DNA of 37,802 nt from positions 1-37,802 of IMG/VR virus record IMGVR_UViG_3300030372_000099; one strand, 5' to 3'. Of this stretch, positions 8,720 to 37,091 are shown one piece after another. The DNA is from a virus. Lineage: Duplodnaviria > Caudoviricetes. How positions within the stretch are numbered: the first letter of the stretch is position 1; each line of letters starts with the position of its first letter. The notes under the pieces were generated by a model. It had not been told where the DNA came from, made no database searches, and worked only from the letters and a program-made list of their open reading frames with translations. Both the position numbers and the translations under genes were made by a program.

Positions 8720-11284
8720 TTAAGGCGACCACCAGTATTCTTGACCCGTCTGTTTCTTTAATCTTCTCTTATTTCTCCTAGTATCTCTGTCATAATTTGG
8801 GTTTAGCAGCTTTTCTAAGGTATCAAATATCAGCCTTTCTGTAACTATTCGAGTGTACCAGATGTTATTTCCAGGTGTATATCTTTGGATAAATGCTGCA
8901 AGCTCCTTACCAGCATTAGTCTTTTCGCCACTTGCAAGCTGTGAAACATTGCCGATTGTTAAATTTATCAAATCTCCAATAAAGCTAATTACTGGTCCAG
9001 CTACAGTTTTTGATATAGATCCACCATATCTGTTTTGATCTGAAAATAAGAAGTCTCCAAAGATACCTAATCCACCACCATAAATAGCAGCATTAATCCA
9101 ATATCTTACTCCCATGTTTTCTGGAGCTGTAGGTTTTTTACCAGCTGCCATTTGCTTAATTTCATAAGCAAAAGCTCCCATAATAGTTCCACCAATAATC
9201 ATTGGAGCTAAATATTTAAACTTACCACTAAATCCTATTTGTTGAAAACCTCTAGCCAAATGCGTCATGCCTAAAGTAATTGCAAAGTTTTTATACATTA
9301 AACCAGAATTAACTATTTCTCCTTTAACTGTTCCTGGCTTAGCATTTCCAGCTAAAGTAATTCTACCTTTTGCAGATGCAGTAGGTACAGCAAAATTAGT
9401 TTCATTAGTTAGCCATGTCATTAATCTTGTTGTTAAAAATTCTCTTGTAGCCTCATCTAAATCAGCTCTAGCAAAAATATCGTCTGGTCTTAAATAAGTC
9501 ATCCCTTTACCAGCCATAGATGGATCATCTATTCCAGCATCATATAATTTTGTTGTTCTAATAATATCCCATTCTTTTTCGCCAATACCATATTTTTTAA
9601 ATTGTGCTTGTAAATTTTTATGTAGTTTAGCAAATGGAGTTTTAACTTCTTCTGCAAGTTCTCCTAATGCCATCATTCCAAACGCCCATTTATTAGCTTG
9701 CGTAGAATGCGATAACCCAGATCCTCTTAAAACTGCATCTGAAATTCTTTTAGACCACATGGGAGCATCTACTTCCATTAAATATCTATTCATAACTGCA
9801 GCTACGCTGCTCCACATTTCAGCACCTAAACCAAGTTTAATTGCTAATCTTGCTAATTTTTTATCTTTCTTCATACCCTCTGCTAAAAATTTAACAGAGT
9901 TCATATTAGCTCTATGTGATTTTAAACCATTAAATTTTGCAGTATGTCTCATCCAATGCTGATCGGTAAGTGTCATAACCGCAGCTCCACCTAATTGAGA
10001 GCCAGTTAATAATTGTCTTAAAGCTGCAAAAGTATTTCCCCAAAAACCATCAACGGGTTTGCTTAATTGACCCTTATGGTACATCATTAAATTATCAGAG
10101 TTTTCTAAAATAGCATTAGTTCTATCTTGTTCAGTTCTATAAATTTTTACTTGATCTTTTTTAACACCTCTTAATTTACTATCTTTAATAATAGTTTTTT
10201 TTCTTTTAAATTTACCTTGTGCCTCCGCAGCTGCATCAATAGCGGATTGTTTTCTAATCATACTTTTAGCCCAGGTATGAATAGCGTCTGGGTTTGGTCC
10301 AAGGATTTTAAGTATAGCAATATCCCTAGACATACTGTTTATGTGATCTAACATTGTTTTAAATGGATCTGGATTGCCAAATCTAGTTTGATATGCCATC
10401 CAATCATCTGCACTTTTAAATGCTAAAAATCTATGATCCAATCTTCTATTGTGGAGAGCTTTACCCATTCGATTAACTCCAGGTTTAAAATTAGCCATAC
10501 CCTCTGTTGAAATATTAGCATACACTTGACTTAAAGCCTCTCGAATAGATTTATCGGTAAATGGCAAACCAGTTTTTTCATCAATCATTTTTTCTATATC
10601 TAATCTAGGTAAAATAAAATCAATCCAATCTTCTTTTGGAGTGGATCTAACTGTTAAAGTATCGTGCATTTGGGGTAATCCCCAATCATCTCTTGATTTA
10701 ATTTTCATACCATAAGAGTTTGCTCTTACTCTTAAATGTTCAGCTGTTTTTTTCCATGCCTCTGCCAATTCTTGAGCATTAACATTTCCAGTTCTTTCGC
10801 CCATTAACTCTCTAACCATTAATGTTTTATTAGCTTTTTGTTTCCTGGATTGTAATCCTCCCCAACCATATTTGAATTGATCCAAAACATTATTCATTAA
10901 ACTATGAGCTTTCTTAGCCTCATTAGTTGCTTGGTTTTCTATATTAGGTTTATAAGACCAGTTGTCTTGAGCCAGGTAAGCTCTATAAGCATTAGCATAA
11001 TCTACTTCGCCATTTTCATTTCTATAATTTGCAAAATCAAATTCTATCTCTTGCATCTTAGCTCTCATCTGTAAAGTGTATCTTAACTTCTCTGCCTCTT
11101 CTATTTTCATGGCATCGTACACTTCTCTTGCAGATCTTTTCTCAGCCTCTGGCTTAGTTAAATTTTTTCTATATTGATAAAAATCTCTAATCTCATCAAA
11201 ATTTTTATATAATGTTTCTCCTTGTTTTTCAGAAATTAAACCCTCTTTAATACCATTAATAATACATTGCTTAAAACCACTCAT
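8720..11284 (-). CDS. Large internal virion (ejection) protein, gp16/Bbp10-like
   Basis: 854 aa, WGLPQMHD and HRFLAFKSADDW motifs, Gly-rich hydrophobic C-terminal segments; last gene before the tail fibre. Confidence 0.8.
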   Translation of the reverse strand: MSGFKQCIINGIKEGLISEKQGETLYKNFDEIRDFYQYRKNLTKPEAEKRSAREVYDAMKIEEAEKLRYTLQMRAKMQEIEFDFANYRNENGEVDYANAYRAYLAQDNWSYKPNIENQATNEAKKAHSLMNNVLDQFKYGWGGLQSRKQKANKTLMVRELMGERTGNVNAQELAEAWKKTAEHLRVRANSYGMKIKSRDDWGLPQMHDTLTVRSTPKEDWIDFILPRLDIEKMIDEKTGLPFTDKSIREALSQVYANISTEGMANFKPGVNRMGKALHNRRLDHRFLAFKSADDWMAYQTRFGNPDPFKTMLDHINSMSRDIAILKILGPNPDAIHTWAKSMIRKQSAIDAAAEAQGKFKRKKTIIKDSKLRGVKKDQVKIYRTEQDRTNAILENSDNLMMYHKGQLSKPVDGFWGNTFAALRQLLTGSQLGGAAVMTLTDQHWMRHTAKFNGLKSHRANMNSVKFLAEGMKKDKKLARLAIKLGLGAEMWSSVAAVMNRYLMEVDAPMWSKRISDAVLRGSGLSHSTQANKWAFGMMALGELAEEVKTPFAKLHKNLQAQFKKYGIGEKEWDIIRTTKLYDAGIDDPSMAGKGMTYLRPDDIFARADLDEATREFLTTRLMTWLTNETNFAVPTASAKGRITLAGNAKPGTVKGEIVNSGLMYKNFAITLGMTHLARGFQQIGFSGKFKYLAPMIIGGTIMGAFAYEIKQMAAGKKPTAPENMGVRYWINAAIYGGGLGIFGDFLFSDQNRYGGSISKTVAGPVISFIGDLINLTIGNVSQLASGEKTNAGKELAAFIQRYTPGNNIWYTRIVTERLIFDTLEKLLNPNYDRDTRRNKRRLKKQTGQEYWWSP

Positions 11285-13857
11285 ACGCAGTTTTCCAATC
11301 TTTTAAACATAGTTGCAGCTTTTGCGTCTTGTTCAAATGTTTCTCTGGCAGTTGATAATAAAGGAACAATATCTCCATTTTCATCTAGTCTGGTCCCAAT
11401 AACAAACGGAATATCAACATCGTTAGTAGTATTCATTCTTGAAAATTCTTTATCTTTAATTTTAAAGTAAGCATTTTTCATATCAGCCTCTACTTTGGCT
11501 TGCTCTTTCAATGTTTTGTTCCACTCATCCATTGACATACTATCTCTTTGATATGTAATTTTTTTATAAACAGCGTGAGACTTATCTATTATTGGATCTA
11601 ATTCTTTAAGAGAGATTTGTAGTTCAAAAGAAAAACCATCTTTTGTTAATGCTTGCGTATGGATCCGTCTATATTCTGTTGGCGTTTTTCTTTGTGTTCT
11701 TGCAACATCATCTAAAAAATCGTCAATCTCTAAAAGTTTATATGTCTTATTTAATTCAGAAAGTAATAGTTTTGCTTGAGTTATTGTATCTACACTTATT
11801 CTAGCACCTAACCAATCTGGGATATTTTGTGGCTGTAAATCCTTTTTAACAGCTAATTTTTCCTTAATTTTAGCCTTATCTTTAACTCTAGCCTTTAAAT
11901 CGCCATTATATTTTGCTGTAATTTGTTGTAGATCCTTTTTAAGAGGTTTAAGTTTTTTAGATAAAGTGTTGTAAATCTCTTTATAATTATTAGATTTTTG
12001 ATATAACCTTATACCTATGGAATTGAAATCGCCAACAGACTTATTAGCAAGTCCACGAATGAGTGGAGGTTTGCTTTGTGCAGTTGCTAAAACTGTAGAT
12101 GATAAAGCTATATCTGTCTCTTGGGATTTTGATACTAAGTCTTGGGTTTTTGCTAAAGGATTATCAATAGGTACTGTTTTAGCTGCAGCTCCAGCCTCAG
12201 CCTCAGTTCTTATGGCTGCAGATGTTCCAGCATCAAACATTGTTTCTTCCGATAGCGAGGCTTGATTTCTATAAGCTGCCTCATTAGGTACATCAAAATT
12301 TTTAGCTGCCTCAATATCTTGCGCTATTGTACTTTCATTTCTATTAAAATTTGCTTTATTGATACCTGGAGCGTTAGCCTCAGTTGCTACTTTAGGAACA
12401 TTAAAATCAAGAGAGTTTAAATCTTGTAAAGTATCAGCATAAACTCCTTGATCTGTAGCTCCCTCTTTTTCTAATTTAGCTTTTCTTTCAATTAATTTAT
12501 TTCTAATAGTATTAATTTCTTGTTTAGATAATTGAGATACTGTTTTTCCTTGAGCATTTAAGCCAGCAGATCTAATTGTGTAATTAGGATTTCTAACATT
12601 TAAAAAAGCACTAGACTTAGGATCCAGGTTAATTACTCTTTCTGAACCATCTGGCATTTTAACTTTAAGAGAATTACCAGAAGAGCTTTTTTTAATTACT
12701 GGAACATTAACTTTATTTCCTTTAGCATCAAAAATATCAATTAATTGTCCAGGCTTAACTTCTACTGGTGGTCTAAGATTATTTGTATCAATAGGATTTT
12801 TAGCTGGTGGTAAATCTAACTCTGTGCTTTCATTAATTGATTTAACTGTAGCGTTTAATCTTTCTCTATGCTCTGTTCTGCCCGCAGCATTATCTGGAAA
12901 AGGATTATCTTTTTCTGGAATTTTATAATTATCTAAAGCTGTATTTTTATATTTTGGATTAAGATCTCCCATTTCTTTTCCAACAGCTTGCAGATCATTA
13001 TCTGATAATTTAAAAAGATGTTTTTTACCAACATCATATCCTTTACCAAATGCTTTAAATACACCAAGCAATAATGGAGATAAAGTTGCCGATGCACCAG
13101 CTACCATAAAAATATTTTTTAAACCAGTTTCTAAACCAGCATCTTCAAAACCTAATTCTTTTCTGTACGGCTGAGATTGTAATTGTATTAATGCTTCTGA
13201 TACTCCACCTATAACCGCCTCATATCTTGCAACTTTCCATGCTGCCTTACCAAATGTTGCTGGTATAGCATAACCAAATGATGCACCAACACCCATCATC
13301 ATAAATGGATCTTTAAGTGAAGAATATGCCATCCCACCAAAACCACCTAAAATATTTGAAAGTGTAGTAGATCTTGATTTTATTTCAGCATAATCTTGCC
13401 AAGCATCGTGAGCTTTCTTAGCAATAACTTTTTTCATGTTATCGTGATTATCTAATCCAGCCTCAGTTAATTTAAGAGCTATTTCTGGATTTGATTTTTT
13501 AACTTCTTCAATTTGTTTCCAAAAATTTGCCTGGGTCTGTATTATATCTCCGACATTATCAACTTGCCTATATCCTACTACTTCTAAATTTTCGTTGTCT
13601 TGATATTGGCTGCCTCCCATTATACTTTCTATATCTACGGGGTTTGTAAAATTGCTGTTCCCGTTTTCATGTAGGAGCTGCACTACATTTCCATATTCTT
13701 CTTCCAAATTCATTAATTCAGAATGAGACCATTCCGTCATACCAAATGCTTTATTAACAGCATTAAAGTTTTCAGATATGCTTGTTCTTGGTCCCTTAGA
13801 CCAGCTCTCATTTACTTTAGGAGTAAGAGCTTTATCTTCATCAAAGAAAATACTCAT
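11281..13857 (-). CDS. Internal virion protein with an embedded RelA/SpoT (small alarmone synthetase-like) domain
   Basis: Lies in the ejection-protein block. Residues ~650-765 carry ARVK, DWLGARI, YRRIH, FELQI and HAVYK in RSH synthetase order and spacing. Confidence 0.85.
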   Translation of the reverse strand: MSIFFDEDKALTPKVNESWSKGPRTSISENFNAVNKAFGMTEWSHSELMNLEEEYGNVVQLLHENGNSNFTNPVDIESIMGGSQYQDNENLEVVGYRQVDNVGDIIQTQANFWKQIEEVKKSNPEIALKLTEAGLDNHDNMKKVIAKKAHDAWQDYAEIKSRSTTLSNILGGFGGMAYSSLKDPFMMMGVGASFGYAIPATFGKAAWKVARYEAVIGGVSEALIQLQSQPYRKELGFEDAGLETGLKNIFMVAGASATLSPLLLGVFKAFGKGYDVGKKHLFKLSDNDLQAVGKEMGDLNPKYKNTALDNYKIPEKDNPFPDNAAGRTEHRERLNATVKSINESTELDLPPAKNPIDTNNLRPPVEVKPGQLIDIFDAKGNKVNVPVIKKSSSGNSLKVKMPDGSERVINLDPKSSAFLNVRNPNYTIRSAGLNAQGKTVSQLSKQEINTIRNKLIERKAKLEKEGATDQGVYADTLQDLNSLDFNVPKVATEANAPGINKANFNRNESTIAQDIEAAKNFDVPNEAAYRNQASLSEETMFDAGTSAAIRTEAEAGAAAKTVPIDNPLAKTQDLVSKSQETDIALSSTVLATAQSKPPLIRGLANKSVGDFNSIGIRLYQKSNNYKEIYNTLSKKLKPLKKDLQQITAKYNGDLKARVKDKAKIKEKLAVKKDLQPQNIPDWLGARISVDTITQAKLLLSELNKTYKLLEIDDFLDDVARTQRKTPTEYRRIHTQALTKDGFSFELQISLKELDPIIDKSHAVYKKITYQRDSMSMDEWNKTLKEQAKVEADMKNAYFKIKDKEFSRMNTTNDVDIPFVIGTRLDENGDIVPLLSTARETFEQDAKAATMFKRLENCV
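12017..12265 (+). CDS. Candidate antisense-nested small protein (possible immunity/antitoxin)
   Basis: 82-aa ORF with a globular-looking core (GGLLCAVAKTVDDKAISVSWDFDTKSWVFAKG). TGaTATAAC extended -10-like element at 11999-12007. Adjoins the RSH domain. Confidence 0.5.
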   Translation: MELKSPTDLLASPRMSGGLLCAVAKTVDDKAISVSWDFDTKSWVFAKGLSIGTVLAAAPASASVLMAADVPASNIVSSDSEA

Positions 13858-15977
13858 TAATTCATTCCCGTTATGATTTCGTCTCTAATATTATTGATGT
13901 TAATAATGAAATACTTACCATCACTATTCATTAAATATTCTGCGTCTGCTCCATCTTCTGTAGGATTTTCTCCCATGGCTATTTTGTATTTGCCATTTCC
14001 AACACTTACAAAATAAGGATCATCTGTTTTAAAAATTTCAGCTAAACTTATTTCTTCTCCTCTTAATGCACCATCTCCAATAATTGCATTCTTGCCATTA
14101 GAAGATGCTTTTAACCATAAATTTTCATTTTCTTTCATTCTTTCAATAACATCTTCAAAAGTTCCGTTTTCTAACCAAGTTGGGATATGTACCTTATTTC
14201 CTCTAGTATCTTCATCGTAGCCACCAAAAGAATTGTCAAATAAAAACCCATCTCTTTTAGAACCTCCAGATGCCATAATGAATGCTTTTTCCCAGTCATC
14301 GTCATCAAAACTATCTTTATTTTTTCCAGAATTTTTTAATTGAGCCATGTAAATATAATTAGCTGCTTGAACAATATTGTTTAAAGTATCTTCATTATCT
14401 GGAAATACTTGCGCATAATCTGATACTTTTCCTAAAATATCATTTGTATTAATTTTATAAACGGCAGCTAAATCTTTATTTTTAGAAAGTAAAAAACCCT
14501 CAGCTAAAAGATTTACATTTTCGCCTGGCTGATAATCGTTCATAATTGTAAGTCCGCCAATAGTAGATAAAACAGTATTGTCTTTTGTAAGTTGTTTAAA
14601 TGCTAGATCGCTATCACTACCAAATGCTTGAACCAAAATTGTTGAAAGTTGAGTTATTTCGTCTGCAGTATCCGCAGCATTAAAAGCATCTTTGATTTGT
14701 TTTTCTTCATTTGCAGTAAAAAATTTAACTTCTCTTGTATAAAAGGATCCTACTGTTTTCGCTTTAGCAATTCTTTCGTTAATTGCATCTACAAAATTAT
14801 TAACCTCTCCACCTGGAGATAACATTTCTGCAAACCCTATTTCATTAAGAGTTATTATTCCTTTTTCGTGAGCTGTAGTTAATTGATCTTTATCTAAATT
14901 AGATGTTAATTTTGATAAGAATTTTTTGGTAATTTCTAAATTTCTTGCGTAATTACCCTCCATACCAGAGCCAGTTTCTCTAAGTTTTTTATTATTGTAT
15001 TCAGTTAAAATATTTTTTCTGTTTTCTATTTCAGCTACAGACATATTGCTAAGTTCAGAATAATAACTAGCATCTGTTGCCATGTTATTTAATTTAATAA
15101 CAGTTGCTTGATCGTTTCCCTCAATAGCAGCTGTCATGGCTGCATTCCATTCATCTTCATTAAAAATAATACCGCTCTCCATAGCACTTTCCATTTTCTT
15201 AACTTTATCTTTATTAAGTTTATTGCTAGTAGTTGATGAGGTTTTAAAATGAGTTTTTAATTTTTCTACATCTTCTATATCTAATCTTTTATCTTTTTTA
15301 GCCATTTCCAAAGCTGCTTTTTGATCTTTTAAAGAAACACTTTTATAACCAAAGAAAGCTATATCTCTATTAGTTTCTTTTTTTACTTTATCTAAAGTAT
15401 CTCCAAAAACTTCTTTAGCTTTATCAGAATCTAAAAATGTGGCTAACTCATTTGTAGCTGTATCTTTTTCTAATTGAGTTGTTCCATAAACAATAGATTT
15501 TTTCCAAGTTTCTATTTGATCCATTCTATTTAGTCTTAAAGAATTAATCATGTTGGTTGTTGTTGCAACTTTAATAGCGTTAGTATCTTTTAATTGTTGT
15601 TTAGACATCCAGTTTGACAATTTCTTTTTAGTCATCCAGGAAACTTCATTCTTAGAGCTTTCTAATAAAGACTTCCATTGATTATTATATAATTCAAGAG
15701 CTGCTTTATCATCTTTCATCTCGCTAGCTTTAATAATGGTTTTACTTAAACCCTCTTTAGTTTCAGTACCATTCATTATCTCTTTAGATTTTTCTAAAAG
15801 CTCATTATCAGATTTGATGTCCAGGTGTTTAATATAAAGTTTTTCTCCAGATTGCAGCATACCTTTCATGGCTTTACCAATGGATTGAGCCTCAGATAAA
15901 CTTATTTGTCTGGTATCCATTACATTTGAAGATTTAGTTGTTGGTTCAAGTTGTGATTTATATAATTTTATTGCCAT
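13857..15977 (-). CDS. Internal virion protein, gp15-like
   Basis: 706 aa, helical; follows the gp14-like gene. Confidence 0.7.
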   Translation of the reverse strand: MAIKLYKSQLEPTTKSSNVMDTRQISLSEAQSIGKAMKGMLQSGEKLYIKHLDIKSDNELLEKSKEIMNGTETKEGLSKTIIKASEMKDDKAALELYNNQWKSLLESSKNEVSWMTKKKLSNWMSKQQLKDTNAIKVATTTNMINSLRLNRMDQIETWKKSIVYGTTQLEKDTATNELATFLDSDKAKEVFGDTLDKVKKETNRDIAFFGYKSVSLKDQKAALEMAKKDKRLDIEDVEKLKTHFKTSSTTSNKLNKDKVKKMESAMESGIIFNEDEWNAAMTAAIEGNDQATVIKLNNMATDASYYSELSNMSVAEIENRKNILTEYNNKKLRETGSGMEGNYARNLEITKKFLSKLTSNLDKDQLTTAHEKGIITLNEIGFAEMLSPGGEVNNFVDAINERIAKAKTVGSFYTREVKFFTANEEKQIKDAFNAADTADEITQLSTILVQAFGSDSDLAFKQLTKDNTVLSTIGGLTIMNDYQPGENVNLLAEGFLLSKNKDLAAVYKINTNDILGKVSDYAQVFPDNEDTLNNIVQAANYIYMAQLKNSGKNKDSFDDDDWEKAFIMASGGSKRDGFLFDNSFGGYDEDTRGNKVHIPTWLENGTFEDVIERMKENENLWLKASSNGKNAIIGDGALRGEEISLAEIFKTDDPYFVSVGNGKYKIAMGENPTEDGADAEYLMNSDGKYFIININNIRDEIITGMN

Positions 15978-16436: not shown

Positions 16437-16885
16437 TTCATTATCCTTGCAAATCTTACAAAGTCAGATCCATCGGGACCATAACTTTCCATTAATCCTT
16501 CTTTTTTAAAACCTAACCACTTGGCAAATCTTAATGCCACATCGCAATCAGCTTTTACGGAAGTTTGTATTCTTTTTATTTTATTAGCTTTTAAAATTAT
16601 TTCGGTTCGTTGTTTAATGTGTTTAGCACAAAAAATTGGATATTTATAAATATCTTTTGTTGCTAAGACCCACCCCTCGGCAACGCCATCCCAGAGATGA
16701 AAGACACCTCCAGCCGCTATCGGTCTGTTATTAACTAGACCCGTAAACGACATTCCAACTTCTTTTAAAAAAAAAGCATATTTTTTATGCTCTGGTTTTA
16801 ATTCTAAAAATTCGCTATTTAAGCCTTGTTCTAATATTTGTTCTGCGTGCTTATTTTCAAAAGGAACAATAACTACATCAGACAC
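16433..16885 (-). CDS. GNAT-fold protein (T7 gp13-like)
   Basis: GVAEGW and RFAKWLGFKKEG motifs; directly after tail tube B. Confidence 0.8.
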   Translation of the reverse strand: MSDVVIVPFENKHAEQILEQGLNSEFLELKPEHKKYAFFLKEVGMSFTGLVNNRPIAAGGVFHLWDGVAEGWVLATKDIYKYPIFCAKHIKQRTEIILKANKIKRIQTSVKADCDVALRFAKWLGFKKEGLMESYGPDGSDFVRFARIMK

Positions 16886-19517
16886 TTTCTGTCTCCAATC
16901 TAGGATAAATACCCAAAATTGTCATAGGTAGAGCTTGTGGTTGTTGCACATAAACCAAACCTTCTGTTCCATAGTTTGTATCAAATTCAATAGACTTATC
17001 TCCTGTAAATAAAGGAATAGGTAAATCCATAGGAGATCCACTAGATCTGAAATCTATTGCTGTTAAGTTGGCAGCATTGGGTCCAACACTTGCTCCAACT
17101 GTATTTTGAAATCTAACTGATAAGTCATAAATTCTTTTAGTTTTAGTTTGAGTTGTTTCTGTATAACCTTCGTCTAATCTCATTGTTTGTAAATCAGATG
17201 TATATAATAAACCAACTTTAGCTTGTTCAGTAGAATTGGTTAATGTTATAGCTCCGCTTGAAACTGTTTTTGAATTTTGAGTTGAGCCTTCGCCAATTAT
17301 GTCAACCACCTCTGCTTCTAAATGATCTAAACCAGAAAGACTTGAAGTTAAATCTCCTGTGTAGCTTAATCCACTATCTAAATAATGAAATGCAGTTAAA
17401 TCTTCGTTAAAATTAAATGGTGTAAAATATTCTACATATCTTCTTACAACACCATTAATCCATCTTTTAACTATAATCCAAACTTGATCTTCATCGCTAT
17501 CGCCATCTATTACAGCAACACTTTCTACTTTAGCATGAGTTAAAATATTATCTGTTTGTTCTGATGTATGAGCTGAAGTTAAACTAACATTGGTGCTTAA
17601 AGTTTTATCTGAATAAAGTTTAAATTGATTGTCATCAATTTTTTCAATGTAGTATTTTGTATTTTCAGATAAACCTCCAATAGCTGTTCCTGTATTATCG
17701 TAATAAAAAATATCTCCAGTAGTAAAACCATGAGATGCAGAATAAATAAAATTAGATGAAATATTAACACCTTGATAAATGTATTGAGTTGTGTCTGAAC
17801 TTGGAGCTGAAGTAAAAGATATGGCAGTTCCCGCAGTAGCGTTAGATGCGGTTGTTGCTAATTTGATTGTGTTACTATCTGATGCGATAGCAAAATATAA
17901 TGTTGAATTATTTAAACCACCAATAATATTACTAGCTGCATAATAATAAACTGGATCGCCAGTAGATAATCCGTGTGATGTTAAAGTTATAGTGTTGTTA
18001 GTTGTATTAACAACTGTAGTATTTGATGTAAAAGAAATTTGTTGATGAATAATATTTTTTGTTGTGTCTGATTTACCACCGATAATATGTCTGTGCCAGG
18101 CTACTACATTTTCTAATCTATTATAAGTTAAACCAGCTAATACTCCGTCTGTTCTTGCTCCCCAAACTACAGAGTAAGGTTCTTGCTGATAATCCATTTG
18201 CACTACACCACTTTCTGTAATATGATCCGCCAAAATTGTTAAGTCTGGTGCAGTATAACCATCCGTGTCAAAGTTATAAGCAAGCTCTCTAACTTTTCTT
18301 TTAGCTCTTTGTAGAAATATAGTTGCGTTTCCAATTGATAAAGCATCCACACCCGCAGAACCATAATTAGATTGTTTTCTGATATTAATATTGGTTGGAG
18401 TAATTGCATCCTGGTTAGCTCCAGAACTAACAGCATATTCGCCACCCGTTGTCATGCAAATTAAAGTTCTTGTAGCTTTTAATGATTTAATCGCATTAAC
18501 TTGGTTTGATGCAATTGTATAAACCATAGCATCGTCAGCATCTGTACCAGATGTCATATTCTCATAATCTCCAGATTTTGAGAAAAACATTGTTTGAGGT
18601 TGATCTGTTGTTGCTGCAAATACTAATCTTTGTTCAAAGAAAGAAACGGAAGATGGATGACCCGTGGTATCGGAAAAGGAACCAAGTTGAAAAGATGCTG
18701 TGGCATCGGTATTGGTAAAAGCATCTGTAATTGTGCAGACTACAACTGTGGTATTTGTTCTAGCTGTAATCTTTGCTTCGCCACCATTAAATTTTATTAT
18801 TCTGCCAACATCTTTAGTTCCAAAATCTACTTCTGTTAATGTCCAGGAAGTATGACCCGTTCTTGAAAGTTTCATTACTTCATGGGAGTTGTGGCAGATA
18901 TACATAACATCTGCGGATTGTGCGAATTTTAAATCGAAAAGTTGAGCTGTAGTATATTCAGTTGTAATTTGATAAATTTTGTTTGCAATTCCACCAGATG
19001 AATAAGCTGTGTAGCCAGATGAATTAATATCTGTACCATCAACATTTTGCAGTTCAAAAGTATTAGTGGTTTTGTCAGCTACTTTAAAAGTTTTACCATT
19101 TACCTCTGTCATACCAACAACTCCAGAAATATTTACAAAATCTCCATTAGAATAACCATGTGAGCTAGATGTAACTACAGCTGGATTAGCAGCAGTAATT
19201 GCAGTAATAGTTTTATTACCTTCTGTAATTTGACCATTGTCTTTAAAAAAACGAATATATTGATTACCAAACTCTAAGATGTAAGTTTGTTCAGTTGAAA
19301 AAGAAAAGGGAATTAATCTTGTTGAATTAGCAGATGTTTTAACTTCAGAAACAAAATAAGTTCCTGGTCGTCTTGTTACTGGTCCATGTGGTAATACAAC
19401 AAAATTTTCAATATTTGAGGCTCCGTTAAAATATTTAGCAAAGTCTGTACGACCTTCCATAGATGATGAAAGCTCCCCAGCCGTAAAGCTAGGTATGCTT
19501 AAAAGTTGTTTAGGCAT
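16878..19517 (-). CDS. Tail tubular protein B (nozzle, gp12-like) with inserted beta domains
   Basis: SFTAGELS, GPVTRRPGT, FFEQRL and AWHRH motifs; HG(Y/L/F)xxGD inserts. Confidence 0.9.
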   Translation of the reverse strand: MPKQLLSIPSFTAGELSSSMEGRTDFAKYFNGASNIENFVVLPHGPVTRRPGTYFVSEVKTSANSTRLIPFSFSTEQTYILEFGNQYIRFFKDNGQITEGNKTITAITAANPAVVTSSSHGYSNGDFVNISGVVGMTEVNGKTFKVADKTTNTFELQNVDGTDINSSGYTAYSSGGIANKIYQITTEYTTAQLFDLKFAQSADVMYICHNSHEVMKLSRTGHTSWTLTEVDFGTKDVGRIIKFNGGEAKITARTNTTVVVCTITDAFTNTDATASFQLGSFSDTTGHPSSVSFFEQRLVFAATTDQPQTMFFSKSGDYENMTSGTDADDAMVYTIASNQVNAIKSLKATRTLICMTTGGEYAVSSGANQDAITPTNINIRKQSNYGSAGVDALSIGNATIFLQRAKRKVRELAYNFDTDGYTAPDLTILADHITESGVVQMDYQQEPYSVVWGARTDGVLAGLTYNRLENVVAWHRHIIGGKSDTTKNIIHQQISFTSNTTVVNTTNNTITLTSHGLSTGDPVYYYAASNIIGGLNNSTLYFAIASDSNTIKLATTASNATAGTAISFTSAPSSDTTQYIYQGVNISSNFIYSASHGFTTGDIFYYDNTGTAIGGLSENTKYYIEKIDDNQFKLYSDKTLSTNVSLTSAHTSEQTDNILTHAKVESVAVIDGDSDEDQVWIIVKRWINGVVRRYVEYFTPFNFNEDLTAFHYLDSGLSYTGDLTSSLSGLDHLEAEVVDIIGEGSTQNSKTVSSGAITLTNSTEQAKVGLLYTSDLQTMRLDEGYTETTQTKTKRIYDLSVRFQNTVGASVGPNAANLTAIDFRSSGSPMDLPIPLFTGDKSIEFDTNYGTEGLVYVQQPQALPMTILGIYPRLETESV

Positions 19518-30198: not shown

Positions 30199-30240
30199 TT
30201 TACAAATAAATCCTATTGAATATATTGCCAGTATGTCAAT
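30199..30240 (+). promoter_or_regulatory. Repressor promoter (leaderless) with an operator over the start codon
   Basis: TTTACA-16-TATATT, ATG 6 nt later; ATTGCCA-gta-TGTCAAT at 30224-30240. Confidence 0.65.
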
Positions 30241-30934
30241 AAATAATAAAAAATTAAAATTAGTAGAAAACGCACATTCAGAAAAAACTATGGCAAATTT
30301 ATCTAAACTTTTAAAAGATAATGATATGAGCCAGGTAGAATTAGCAAAACAACTTGGAAGAGATAAAACAACTGTTAATAGATGGGTAAAAAATTCAAGA
30401 GAAGTAGCTTGGGATAATGCAGTTGAAATTTCAAAAGTTTTAAAATGCCATCCAGTAGATATTATTGAAGGTGGTAAATCAGAGATTGTATTACGACAAA
30501 AATGTTTTTGGGATGGTGTAGTTAAAGATTTAACCAAAGAAGAACAGCACAGAATACCTATTCCGTATGAATACAACCATAAAAATATAATGGCTATTCA
30601 AATGGAGTGTCCAGGAACACCAACCGATGGAGAAATTTGGTTATTTGATATGCCTAAAAATAAAAAATTTCATAAGTCGGCAATTGGTAGAATTTGTTAT
30701 TTAGCTCCCTCAAAAGAAGCAGCTAAACTTGCTTTAAAACAATTTAAACATAAATGTACTCCTTGTATTGGTTTGTTAAAACCAAATGGGGATGGAACCT
30801 TAGCAATTTTAAACAGCTCAACTGGAAAAATTCTTAATCAAGCGTGCAATAATGTGCCGCCAAATTTTTTAGAAGTAGCCACACCCGTTAAGGCAAAATA
30901 CGATCCAGAGTTAATTAATTTAGTTATTAAATAA
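30233..30934 (+). CDS. CI-like XRE-family repressor
   Basis: MSQVELAKQLGRDKTTVNRW HTH plus a C-terminal beta domain; divergent from the cro-like gene. Confidence 0.85.
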   Translation: MSINNKKLKLVENAHSEKTMANLSKLLKDNDMSQVELAKQLGRDKTTVNRWVKNSREVAWDNAVEISKVLKCHPVDIIEGGKSEIVLRQKCFWDGVVKDLTKEEQHRIPIPYEYNHKNIMAIQMECPGTPTDGEIWLFDMPKNKKFHKSAIGRICYLAPSKEAAKLALKQFKHKCTPCIGLLKPNGDGTLAILNSSTGKILNQACNNVPPNFLEVATPVKAKYDPELINLVIK

Positions 30935-35235: not shown

Positions 35236-36492
35236 ATGAAAGTATGGATAGTTAAAAAACCTAGGAAAAAAGGATTTGTATGGGTAGTTAAAGCATACGA
35301 TAAATTAAGCGGTAAAACTAAAAATCTTGAGACTTTTCCTAAGAATAAAAAAACTCAAGCTATAGCCTTTAAAGAAGAAAAAGAAAAAGAGGATATGGAA
35401 AATCTAATACCAGCTGATATTACTTTTGACCAGGCTTTCAAGGAATATAAACATTCTATCTTATCTAATAAACAATTAGTTGAAGAGACTAGATTGCTTA
35501 AATGTGGGTTCATAAACAGCCATATAGCTCCGTATATTAACAAAAAGGTAAAATTTAATGGAGAGGTAAGGCATGAAAAAGTAGAGAAATTAGGAGACTA
35601 TACTTACTATGATTTTAAGCACTCTTATATTCCTCAATTAATAGAATCTAAAAAAACTCAAGTTAAGAATAAAAAAGGTGGTGGATTTACTACTGAAAGA
35701 ACCAAGGATCCAATTGGAAAGAAAACCATTAAGGATGTGGTTGGAGAATTTAAAATGTTTGTTCACTATTGCAGAGATAGGAAGTGGTATATGCCAAAGG
35801 AGATCCTAGAATATGAATTTACCCATAACTTCTTCCAGGATTATATTCCTAAATCCGAGTGGGTTCCTAAAAAATCAACTGTTAATAAAATACTTGATAG
35901 TGAAAAGGATCTGCAAAATAAAACATTATTTTTAACGGCTGCTATATGTGGTCCAAGATTAAATGAAATCCTGGCATTAACTTATTGTAATGTGGATTTA
36001 TTATCGGATCCACCGCAGCTTAAATTCAGACACTCGGTTGATAAATGGAATAACTTTAGAGAGCATAAATTAAAAACTGCCAGCTCAAGAAGAGAAACTC
36101 CAATTAGCAAGGAGCTAGTTATTTTGTTAAAGAACTGGATGCAGCAGCAGAAAAACCCAAAAAGAGCAAAAAAAACTAAAGATGATGAAGGAAATATCAT
36201 TACAGATGGAGGTAAATACAAATTGCTATTTGGTTCATTAAGTAAAAAGTCTGCTAGAGGTAGAGTTAAAAGAGCTGCCAAGGCTTTAGGTTTGGAATGG
36301 AAAGGTGGATTAAAACCACTTAGAAAATTCAGATACTCATTAGTTAAAGAGCAAGGAGAGCTTACAGATATTCAAGCTAGACAACAGCAAGGTTGGACTA
36401 TGGAAAGTAAAACTCCTCAAAGATACTACCATAAGAACTTGGATAGCAACCCAGAAAAAACTAAATCAGCTATTAATAAACTGCTTAATTAA
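35236..36492 (+). CDS. int: Tyrosine integrase
   Basis: GPRLNEILAL (Arg I), KLKT, KPLRKF, QGW and RYY; N-terminal arm-binding-like region; attP nearby. Confidence 0.9.
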   Translation: MKVWIVKKPRKKGFVWVVKAYDKLSGKTKNLETFPKNKKTQAIAFKEEKEKEDMENLIPADITFDQAFKEYKHSILSNKQLVEETRLLKCGFINSHIAPYINKKVKFNGEVRHEKVEKLGDYTYYDFKHSYIPQLIESKKTQVKNKKGGGFTTERTKDPIGKKTIKDVVGEFKMFVHYCRDRKWYMPKEILEYEFTHNFFQDYIPKSEWVPKKSTVNKILDSEKDLQNKTLFLTAAICGPRLNEILALTYCNVDLLSDPPQLKFRHSVDKWNNFREHKLKTASSRRETPISKELVILLKNWMQQQKNPKRAKKTKDDEGNIITDGGKYKLLFGSLSKKSARGRVKRAAKALGLEWKGGLKPLRKFRYSLVKEQGELTDIQARQQQGWTMESKTPQRYYHKNLDSNPEKTKSAINKLLN

Positions 36493-36863: not shown

Positions 36864-37091
36864 ACTACCCCTTTTACTACCCCTAAAAAAAATAAGCATT
36901 GGTATTACTGGGTTAAATTGGTCGGGGCGGCAGGATTTGAAACTATAGACCAAACCTCCCAGAAGTATTGATATACCTTATTAAAACTAGAAATTGAATA
37001 AAAAAAGTTGCCATAAATCCCATTAAATAAGTGTTTATTTTATTGGGTCATATCAGCGTGAGTTATCGCTTACTACCCTTTTACAGACCCT
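36864..37091. other. attP: 23-bp tRNA-Pro 3' end core (36919-36941) flanked by arm-type repeats
   Basis: Minus strand TTCAAATCCTGCCGCCCCGACCA is a T-loop, T-stem, acceptor strand and CCA. ACTACCC(C)T repeats at 36864, 36876 and 37072. Confidence 0.85.

What the first reader, a model, noticed from the sequence alone, without database searches (positions are those of the whole stretch)
11460..11930. RelA/SpoT-type synthetase domain built into a DNA-ejection protein
Seen: the 858-aa gene sits between the gp15-like and gp16-like internal virion genes and carries ARVK (~aa 656), DWLGARI (~681), YRRIH (~729), ELQI (~745) and HAVYK (~761). There is no hydrolase or regulatory domain. Established: this is the motif order of RSH synthetase domains, and toxic small alarmone synthetases make (p)ppGpp or (p)ppApp or pyrophosphorylate tRNA CCA ends; RSH domains are known in MuF and polyvalent phage proteins. 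Inference: the enzyme is packaged and injected with the DNA, acting before phage gene expression to alter host nucleotide pools, translation or the lysis/lysogeny choice. Motif deviations (RVKDKAK lacking the usual Ser; ELQISL rather than EIQIRT) may indicate altered specificity. About 50 further residues ending RLENCV follow, so it looks like an internal cargo insert.
Basis: partly seen in the sequence, partly recalled or inferred. Interest (0 to 1): 0.9.

Follow-up and report, generated by a model that had tools for sequence, protein, structure and literature searches.

The report
Phage toxin gene hides its antidote
A marine phage's predicted DNA-injection protein carries an alarmone-synthetase (RelA/SpoT-type) domain, and a second conserved 82-amino-acid gene runs backwards inside the same DNA and likely encodes that enzyme's inhibitor, with stand-alone copies also found on bacterial chromosome contigs.

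Summary
Confirmed, with a second gene found inside it. ORF 11281-13857(-) is the epsilon15-gp16-slot internal virion protein of a temperate, likely SAR11, podophage. Residues ~621-808 form a small alarmone synthetase (Pfam RelA_SpoT above cut-off; RelP/RelQ fold; catalytic K, D, Y, E, Q invariant in 61 of 61 diverse domains). In relatives the slot is empty or holds zeta-like kinase, GGDEF, GNAT, SLT or ART cargo. It is open with ATG in 27 of 27 loci, avoids TGA and keeps TGG at diagnostic wobble sites, and folds confidently where the carrier frame is disordered. It travels with the synthetase into an unrelated carrier. It also occurs alone on SAR11 chromosome contigs beside tRNA-Pro, this phage's likely attachment site. 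Best reading: an in-frame toxin-immunity cassette whose antidote is written backwards inside it. Virion-borne RSH toxins are known (MuF-Apk2, polyvalent proteins); my paper searches did not find the nested-partner layout. This scan's earlier findings held nothing on it.

The parts
11281..13857 (-). 858-aa internal virion (ejection-type) protein in the epsilon15 gp16 slot, carrier of the cargo
   Evidence: Synteny; diverse N-terminal profile hits the DvSI2 slot protein E 3e-31, C-cap profile hits phiV10 p19 E 3e-7
11434..11997 (-). Small alarmone synthetase domain, aa ~621-808 (Pfam core aa 657-766 = nt 11560-11889)
12017..12265 (+). Nested antisense gene, 82 aa, predicted compact beta-sheet plus two helices; candidate immunity protein
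11999..12007 (+). Extended -10-like motif (TG-N-TATAAC) 9 nt before the nested ATG; possible leaderless promoter, unproven
   Evidence: Similar motif in 18 of 22 distinct upstream sequences, but largely implied by the L/I-Y-H/Q codons of the carrier frame; not listed by the consensus scan
11284..11424 (-). Conserved C-terminal cap (aa 812-858) of the gp16-type scaffold, ending near a conserved Cys
12808..13857 (-). Helical N-terminal scaffold (aa 1-350) shared with slot proteins lacking the synthetase
12388..12780 (-). Variable middle module (aa 360-490); ART-PolyVal-like domain at this place in several relatives
13857..15977 (-). epsilon15 gp15-like internal virion protein (phrog_992)
8720..11284 (-). 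epsilon15 gp17-like / IVP-D internal virion protein (phrog_684)
   Evidence: PMC4819975 passages
35236..36492 (+). Tyrosine integrase (temperate lifestyle; repressor-like HTH gene at 30233-30934)
36919..36941 (-). Likely attP core: 21 of 23 nt match to the 3' end of the SAR11 tRNA-Pro(TGG) beside which orphan copies lie

Best explanation
The 858-aa gene encodes an epsilon15-gp16-type protein, likely packaged and injected with the phage DNA, that carries a likely active and toxic alarmone synthetase, and the 82-aa gene nested backwards inside it likely encodes the binding inhibitor that switches the enzyme off. Shown: domain identity, fold, catalytic conservation, cassette borders (about aa 541-809), selection on the antisense protein, co-travel of the two parts, and stand-alone chromosomal copies. 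Inferred: a few copies enter the cytoplasm at infection and pyrophosphorylate a purine acceptor. (p)ppGpp is my first guess (about 45%), tRNA-CCA about 30%, (p)ppApp about 15%, inactive about 10%. This would stall host growth and gene expression before phage genes are read. The nested gene lies on the strand of the repressor and integrase, so the late operon cannot transcribe it. It would be made from its own start signals and would neutralise the enzyme after entry, in the lysogen and during late synthesis. Because the antidote is coded inside the toxin's own reading frame, the pair can be inserted in frame into a structural gene without breaking the tightly packed late operon. Hosts that keep the small gene alone would disarm the injected enzyme.
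For: Enzyme: K659, D681, Y729, E745, Q747 in 61 of 61 diverse domains, H733 60, R686 58, R657 55. Eight of ten FaRel2 ATP-site residues named in PMC11782079 have counterparts by my motif mapping. 119 of 120 listed close homologues carry PF04607. Slot: RSH-bearing P0210 is 33.7% identical to epsilon15 gp16, E 1e-19. PMC4819975 proposes that IVPs carry passenger enzymes into the cytoplasm. Nested gene: ATG and open frame in 27 of 27 sequences, 21 distinct full-length. Four-fold codons before CAn read C40 A14 G2 T0 inside the overlap (T would give a TGA stop, C gives TGG Trp) against T118 A86 G27 C21 outside. Synonymous resampling keeps frame, ATG and both Trp in at most 0.7% of trials per sequence. 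pLDDT 81.7 against 25-32 for the same DNA read in the carrier frame. Linkage: its shadow is in 54 of 60 RSH-bearing representatives and 1 of 47 others, a fragment ending at the RSH start. Empty-slot L031 lacks both parts. In a different ~400-aa carrier (L168; L171/172/179) it persists with an AGGAG ribosome site at 28% identity (L171 protein vs the window's). Orphans: stand-alone on a 266-kb SAR11-family contig among housekeeping genes next to tRNA-Pro. Beside tRNA-Pro in L099 and L101-L104; carrier frame broken by stops in L097, L100, L104, L107, L134, L140, L142. Named records in Ca. Pelagibacter and Ca. Methylopumilus. No separate small same-strand gene flanks the carrier, whereas 89% of 191 predicted MuF toxins are followed by one (PMC10083569, citing Jamet et al.).
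Against: No activity, toxicity or virion data. The nested protein matches no known immunity family or fold; the Atlas gave no usable hit and a low recognition score. The overlap uses the shared-wobble frame, where an open frame alone is cheap (2-33% by chance), and overall four-fold identity in the overlap (0.62) is not clearly above other regions (0.47-0.62). Counts come from related sequences and are not independent, and the shadow profile was built from RSH-bearing proteins. 8 of 12 distant RSH loci have no such nested gene and 6 of 60 RSH representatives lack the shadow, so these enzymes can exist without it. Orphans are rare among species representatives (1 orphan in 401 family genomes; the same one in 401 genus genomes). 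The Syn1 Ser is mostly lost (13 of 61). Elevated (p)ppGpp restricts T7 (bioRxiv 10.64898/2026.01.27.700999 abstract), which argues against alarmone helping lytic growth. Direct homology of this protein's N-terminus to epsilon15 gp16 is not significant.
Confidence: 0.62

Rival explanations
1. The nested protein is real and coupled to the synthetase but is not its inhibitor. It is an activator, chaperone or phage sensor, and the pair works as a prophage-borne defence or lysogeny switch rather than as an injected weapon.
For: Co-travel shows linkage, not sign. CapRel-type systems use a small domain as both inhibitor and phage sensor (PMC11782079 passages). The phage is temperate.
Against: Stand-alone copies lack any synthetase in their loci, which fits an antidote better than an activator. 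The enzyme is fused inside a late structural gene.
Confidence: 0.17
2. The enzyme is a mild, non-toxic (p)ppGpp synthetase injected to tune host physiology or the lysis/lysogeny choice, and the nested gene has an unrelated job such as superinfection exclusion.
For: Top sequence and structure matches are housekeeping (p)ppGpp synthetases. The host family keeps its own RSH (51 of 61 genomes, one of them the phage-type hit), whose hydrolase could clear ppGpp. Some RSH carriers lack the nested gene.
Against: The nested gene is gained and lost together with the RSH and is not seen with zeta cargo in the same slot.
Confidence: 0.13
3. The antisense ORF is only the shadow of a conserved low-complexity linker, or the synthetase is a dead structural passenger.
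For: Shared-wobble frame; other antisense stretches of 79-194 codons occur elsewhere in these genes; Syn1 Ser lost.
Against: T0 of 56 at stop-forming sites, conserved ATG and Trp codons, confident fold, ribosome sites in distant copies, stand-alone genes whose carrier frame has stops, invariant catalytic residues.
Confidence: 0.08

Closest known systems
MuF-Apk2 phage toxins with IapK/Tis1-like and Aph1 immunity (PMC10083569, PMC12226406)
   Same: RSH-type synthetase fused to a head-associated protein of a temperate phage, with a small partner gene
   Different: Carrier is an epsilon15-gp16-type ejection protein, not MuF; the domain is internal, before a C-terminal cap; it lacks the Apk2 signatures RYT / GxN / YH; the partner gene is nested antisense inside the toxin gene, not downstream, and matches no Tis1-like fold in my searches (inconclusive)
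Phage polyvalent proteins with RelA/SpoT domains (Iyer et al. 2017, PMC5512222)
   Same: Virion-linked multidomain protein; relatives carry ART-PolyVal, DdrB-ParB, LPD38, zeta-like kinase, GGDEF, GNAT, SLT; the same RSH clade sits in such proteins
   Different: The passages read place RSH in Spirochaete and epsilonproteobacterial (pro)phages and MuF fusions; they mention no gp16-type scaffold, SAR11 phage or nested partner gene
toxSAS toxin-antitoxin systems (FaRel, FaRel2, PhRel, PhRel2, CapRel; PMC11782079, PMC12691689)
   Same: Stand-alone synthetase fold with conserved ATP-donor site and a small likely antitoxin
   Different: Here the enzyme is cargo of a virion protein; the antitoxin candidate has no YXXY motif and is read from the opposite strand of the toxin gene
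Internal virion proteins with passenger enzymes, e.g. N4 virion RNAP in IVP-D (Hardies et al. 2016, PMC4819975)
   Same: epsilon15-group IVP operon (IVP-A, -B, gp15, gp16, gp17) hosting a cytoplasmic enzyme
   Different: Passenger is a nucleotide pyrophosphokinase with an embedded partner gene

Membership tests
RSH synthetase (SAS-type) | Pfam RelA_SpoT above gathering score | tested here: met
   35.7 bits vs 27
RSH synthetase (SAS-type) | SYNTH fold | tested here: met
   RelP/RelQ top Foldseek hits
RSH synthetase (SAS-type) | Catalytic and ATP-site residues conserved | tested here: met
   R657, K659, K667, D681, R686, Y729, H733, E745, Q747; Syn1 Ser mostly replaced
RSH synthetase (SAS-type) | No hydrolase, TGS or ACT domain | tested here: met
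RSH synthetase (SAS-type) | Pyrophosphokinase activity | not testable with these tools
   Needs an assay
Apk2 (MuF-fused (p)ppApp synthetase) | N-terminal MuF domain | tested here: not met
   No MuF family in Pfam or PHROGs
Apk2 (MuF-fused (p)ppApp synthetase) | syn2 RYT, syn3 GxN, syn4 YH signatures | tested here: not met
   Here GAR, (R/A)IH, I(S/R) against PMC12226406
Apk2 (MuF-fused (p)ppApp synthetase) | Downstream iapK/aph1 genes | tested here: not met
   The gp17-like gene follows directly in the close loci
tRNA-targeting toxSAS (FaRel2/CapRel type) | N-terminal tRNA-anchoring helices; pZFD/PAD1 antitoxin with YXXY | tested here: inconclusive
   A helix precedes the core (aa 625-649) but was not superposed; the nested window protein has no Tyr; CapRel ranks below RelP/RelQ
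epsilon15 gp16-type internal virion protein | Position between gp15 and gp17 homologues in the IVP operon | tested here: met
epsilon15 gp16-type internal virion protein | Sequence homology to gp16-slot proteins | tested here: inconclusive
   Profiles reach DvSI2 gp8 (E 3e-31) and the phiV10 p19 cap (E 3e-7) but epsilon15 gp16 only at E 0.004; pairwise BLAST to phiV10 p19 and DvSI2 gp8 not significant
epsilon15 gp16-type internal virion protein | Present in virion and ejected | not testable with these tools
   No cultured phage with this protein among 50,697 records
Tis1/IapK-like immunity protein (nested gene) | Tis1-like fold or sequence | tested here: inconclusive
   No hit at E<=0.001, best Z 3.5, no profile hit
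Type II toxin-antitoxin / toxin-immunity pair | Partner binds and neutralises the toxin | not testable with these tools

The most novel reading that the evidence does not exclude
A self-contained, in-frame toxin-immunity cassette of about 270 codons. An alarmone synthetase carries its protein antidote gene antisense within its own N-terminal linker, so the unit moves between unrelated virion proteins of aquatic phages without breaking late operons. Streamlined hosts (SAR11, Methylopumilus) capture the antidote alone, at the phage's attachment tRNA in SAR11, as a defence against an injected phage toxin.
Probability: 0.5. Interest if true: 0.93.

Novelty: new variant of a known kind. Interest (0 to 1): 0.83.

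Why it matters
Whether virion-fused toxins are injected and what they do is stated as open in PMC10083569. This case gives a two-component test (domain plus 82-aa partner) and a population-level sign of conflict, the host-kept orphan partners. A conserved, folded protein encoded wholly antisense within another protein's coding sequence is rare in prokaryotes and their viruses (own knowledge). Gene callers drop such genes, so other 'orphan' toxins in polyvalent phage proteins may hide their immunity the same way. It concerns phages of the most abundant ocean bacteria.

Tried and rejected
Single-sequence PDB search of the domain gave only a chance hit; the family profile gave weak GTP-pyrophosphokinase hits, E 0.005-0.15. 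tblastn of the carrier and of the cassette against 50,697 phage records found nothing. The nested protein matched nothing useful in Pfam, PHROGs, PADLOC, PDB sequences, Foldseek, VIA-align (best Z 3.5) or the ESM Atlas; absence does not show a new fold. RNA: four metatranscriptomes, contigs only, hold short pieces of the carrier gene and none over 12017-12265, which is no evidence either way. The promoter scan showed no excess, 11 sites vs 11.7 expected. Overall four-fold-site identity did not single out the overlap. Ten zeta-carrying slot proteins show no comparable conserved Ser/Thr/Pro-rich shadow by inspection; a DNA search for one returned only its N-terminal 151 aa. Rows dropped: 68 of 188 close homologues were not listed. 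7 of 107 representatives of 300 aa or more were not Pfam-scanned. Of the 16 distinct 'noRSH' proteins, those of L120, L166, L135 (likely cut-off phage copies) and L167 (odd chimera) are not counted as orphans. No tree against characterised toxSAS was built because their sequences were not at hand. Paper searches found no nested antisense immunity gene or gp16-borne RSH; the library lacks most subscription papers (e.g. Bartoli 2023) and no supplements were read. The scan's earlier findings returned two unrelated intron notes.

Full report
Setting. The window is a near-complete (98%) 37.8-kb virus record, about 33% GC. It has terminase, portal, capsid, tail tube and nozzle, IVP-A, IVP-B, three large internal virion genes and tail fibres on the minus strand, and a repressor-like gene and integrase on the plus strand. 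The order matches phiV10 and epsilon15, so the 858-aa gene occupies the gp16 slot. Hardies et al. (PMC4819975, passages) treat epsilon15 gp15/gp16 as IVP-C-like and gp17 as IVP-D, and propose that IVPs deliver passenger enzymes to the cytoplasm. The host is likely SAR11: a 65%-identical homologue lies in a Ca. Pelagibacter MAG, and 36919-36941, just past the integrase, matches the 3' end of a SAR11 tRNA-Pro at 21 of 23 nt.

Motifs lie at the stated places. Pfam RelA_SpoT scores 35.7 bits over aa 657-766 and nothing else is hit. The domain models at pLDDT 67-93 and best matches RelP and RelQ, with CapRel and Tas1 lower. Among 121 close sequences R657 and K659 are invariant, K667, D681, R686, Y729, H733 and Q747 are 120 of 121, and E745 is 119. 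Among 61 diverse domains K659, D681, Y729, E745 and Q747 are invariant. By motif mapping these correspond to FaRel2 ATP-site residues R64, K66, K74, D90, G93, R95, E145, Q147 (PMC11782079, passages); S70 and R77 have no fixed counterpart.

It is cargo. In L031 the scaffold joins straight to the C-terminal cap, lacking about aa 541-809; P0124 and P0125 do likewise. Of 107 representatives of 300 aa or more, 44 have the scaffold without the synthetase. Pfam on 100 of them shows zeta-toxin-like kinases in 10, and GGDEF, GNAT and SLT in single gp16-type proteins. The same RSH clade also sits in polyvalent proteins with DdrB-ParB, LPD38 or SLT. ART-PolyVal-like inserts occur in close relatives. One RSH carrier, P0210, is a clear epsilon15 gp16 homologue (33.7%, E 1e-19). 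For the window's protein, profiles reach DvSI2 gp8 and the phiV10 p19 cap but not epsilon15 gp16 significantly.

The hidden gene. The 'linker' aa 531-613 is Ser/Thr/Pro/Ala-rich, predicted disordered (pLDDT 25-32), yet conserved and travelling with the RSH. An 82-codon ORF lies exactly there on the opposite strand (12017-12265). It is open with an ATG at the same place in 27 of 27 sequences, 21 distinct and full-length, 48-91% identical to the window's. The frames share their wobble base, so openness alone is weak (2-33% by synonymous resampling). The diagnostic sites are not weak: before CAn codons a T would create TGA and a C creates TGG. Inside the overlap the four-fold counts are C40, A14, G2, T0; outside they are T118, A86, G27, C21. 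Frame, ATG and both Trp survive together in at most 0.7% of trials per sequence (related sequences, so not independent). The protein models at pLDDT 81.7 as a beta-sheet with two helices and matches no known family or fold. Its shadow is found in 54 of 60 RSH-bearing and 1 of 47 other representatives (profile built from the former). In 4 of 12 distant loci (two distinct proteins) a ~400-aa carrier, upstream of what look by inspection like terminase and portal genes, keeps the nested gene with an AGGAG site; the other 8 lack it. An extended -10-like motif precedes the ATG in 18 of 22 close sequences, but the carrier's codons largely imply it.

Orphans. Profile searches give 56 and 106 homologues. 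One stands alone on a 266-kb SAR11-family contig among housekeeping genes, next to tRNA-Pro(TGG), with no synthetase in the 19 kb fetched. Among 69 metagenome loci plus two genome loci, 32 distinct proteins are nested with RSH and 16 are not. Four distinct ones flank tRNA-Pro, and seven loci have stops in the carrier frame. L102 and L134 show bacterial neighbours. Named records exist in Ca. Pelagibacter (MDC0578710.1) and in complete Ca. Methylopumilus genomes (WP_046487595.1, WP_140016885.1); their context was not read. Orphans are rare among species representatives: one in each sample of 401 genomes, the same genome.

Mechanism. Shown: intact-looking enzyme, swappable cargo, a selected partner protein gained and lost with it, and kept alone by hosts. 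Inferred: packaging, injection, toxicity, inhibition. On substrate, the Apk2 signatures RYT, GxN and YH (PMC12226406, first quarter of the text and passages) are absent. The segment E-x-D-D-F...GYRAxH resembles E. coli RelA's EFDDY...GYQSIH by my reading; that EXDD marks GDP-preferring synthetases is recalled, not tested. Hence (p)ppGpp first, tRNA-CCA second. Unregulated (p)ppGpp synthetases can be lethal (PMC12691689, passages), and (p)ppGpp restricts T7 (bioRxiv 10.64898/2026.01.27.700999, abstract and outline). A brief stall ended by the partner, or a push toward lysogeny, therefore fits better than a lasting boost to lysis. The host family has its own RSH.

Novelty. RSH domains on virion-linked proteins are known: MuF-Apk2 (PMC10083569, passages) and polyvalent proteins (PMC5512222, passages). 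PMC8954989 (passages) covers ejection of epsilon15 internal proteins. Searches (listings) showed no gp16-borne RSH and no protein immunity gene nested antisense in its toxin; coverage is limited to open-access texts, and supplements were not read. I rate it a new variant of a known kind, interest 0.83. The nested gene is near-certainly real (about 0.9), and its role as inhibitor is likely (about 0.65) but untested.

Noticed in passing
P0136, P0137, P0156, P0163, P0191, P0192, P0206, P0223, P0242, P0268: Zeta-toxin-like P-loop kinases replace the RSH at the same position before the C-terminal cap in 1,078-1,409-aa gp16-type proteins; no nested-gene shadow seen by inspection.
   Followed up: partly
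window 12388-12780 (-); L008, L011, L037, L038, L050, P0119, P0120: The middle module is exchangeable; relatives carry an ART-PolyVal-like domain there, or after the RSH in L037.
   Followed up: partly
P0183, P0189: Polyvalent proteins with two tandem RSH domains of this clade.
   Followed up: no
L097 9380-10600; L102 2874-4946: Hypervariable islets at SAR11 tRNA-Pro(TGG) hold the orphan gene plus unknown 188-312-aa ORFs; L097 has repeated GTGGAGAGT-like motifs on both sides, possibly integrase arm sites.
   Followed up: partly
L169, L170, L173, L174, L175, L178: Phage RSH proteins (409-470 aa in the three loci mapped) after the lysis genes, with no nested or obvious adjacent partner gene.
   Followed up: no
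L134 3998-4357; P0289, P0300, P0313: Several orphan copies have gained C-terminal extensions, some hydrophobic enough to be a membrane anchor.
   Followed up: no
L055 7001-10180: 1,059-aa slot protein with about 360 extra residues of unknown family between scaffold and cassette.
   Followed up: no
window 16878-19517 (-): The tail nozzle carries inserted repeats matching E1_FCCH and baseplate-wedge-like families and varies from 759 to 922 aa among relatives.
   Followed up: no
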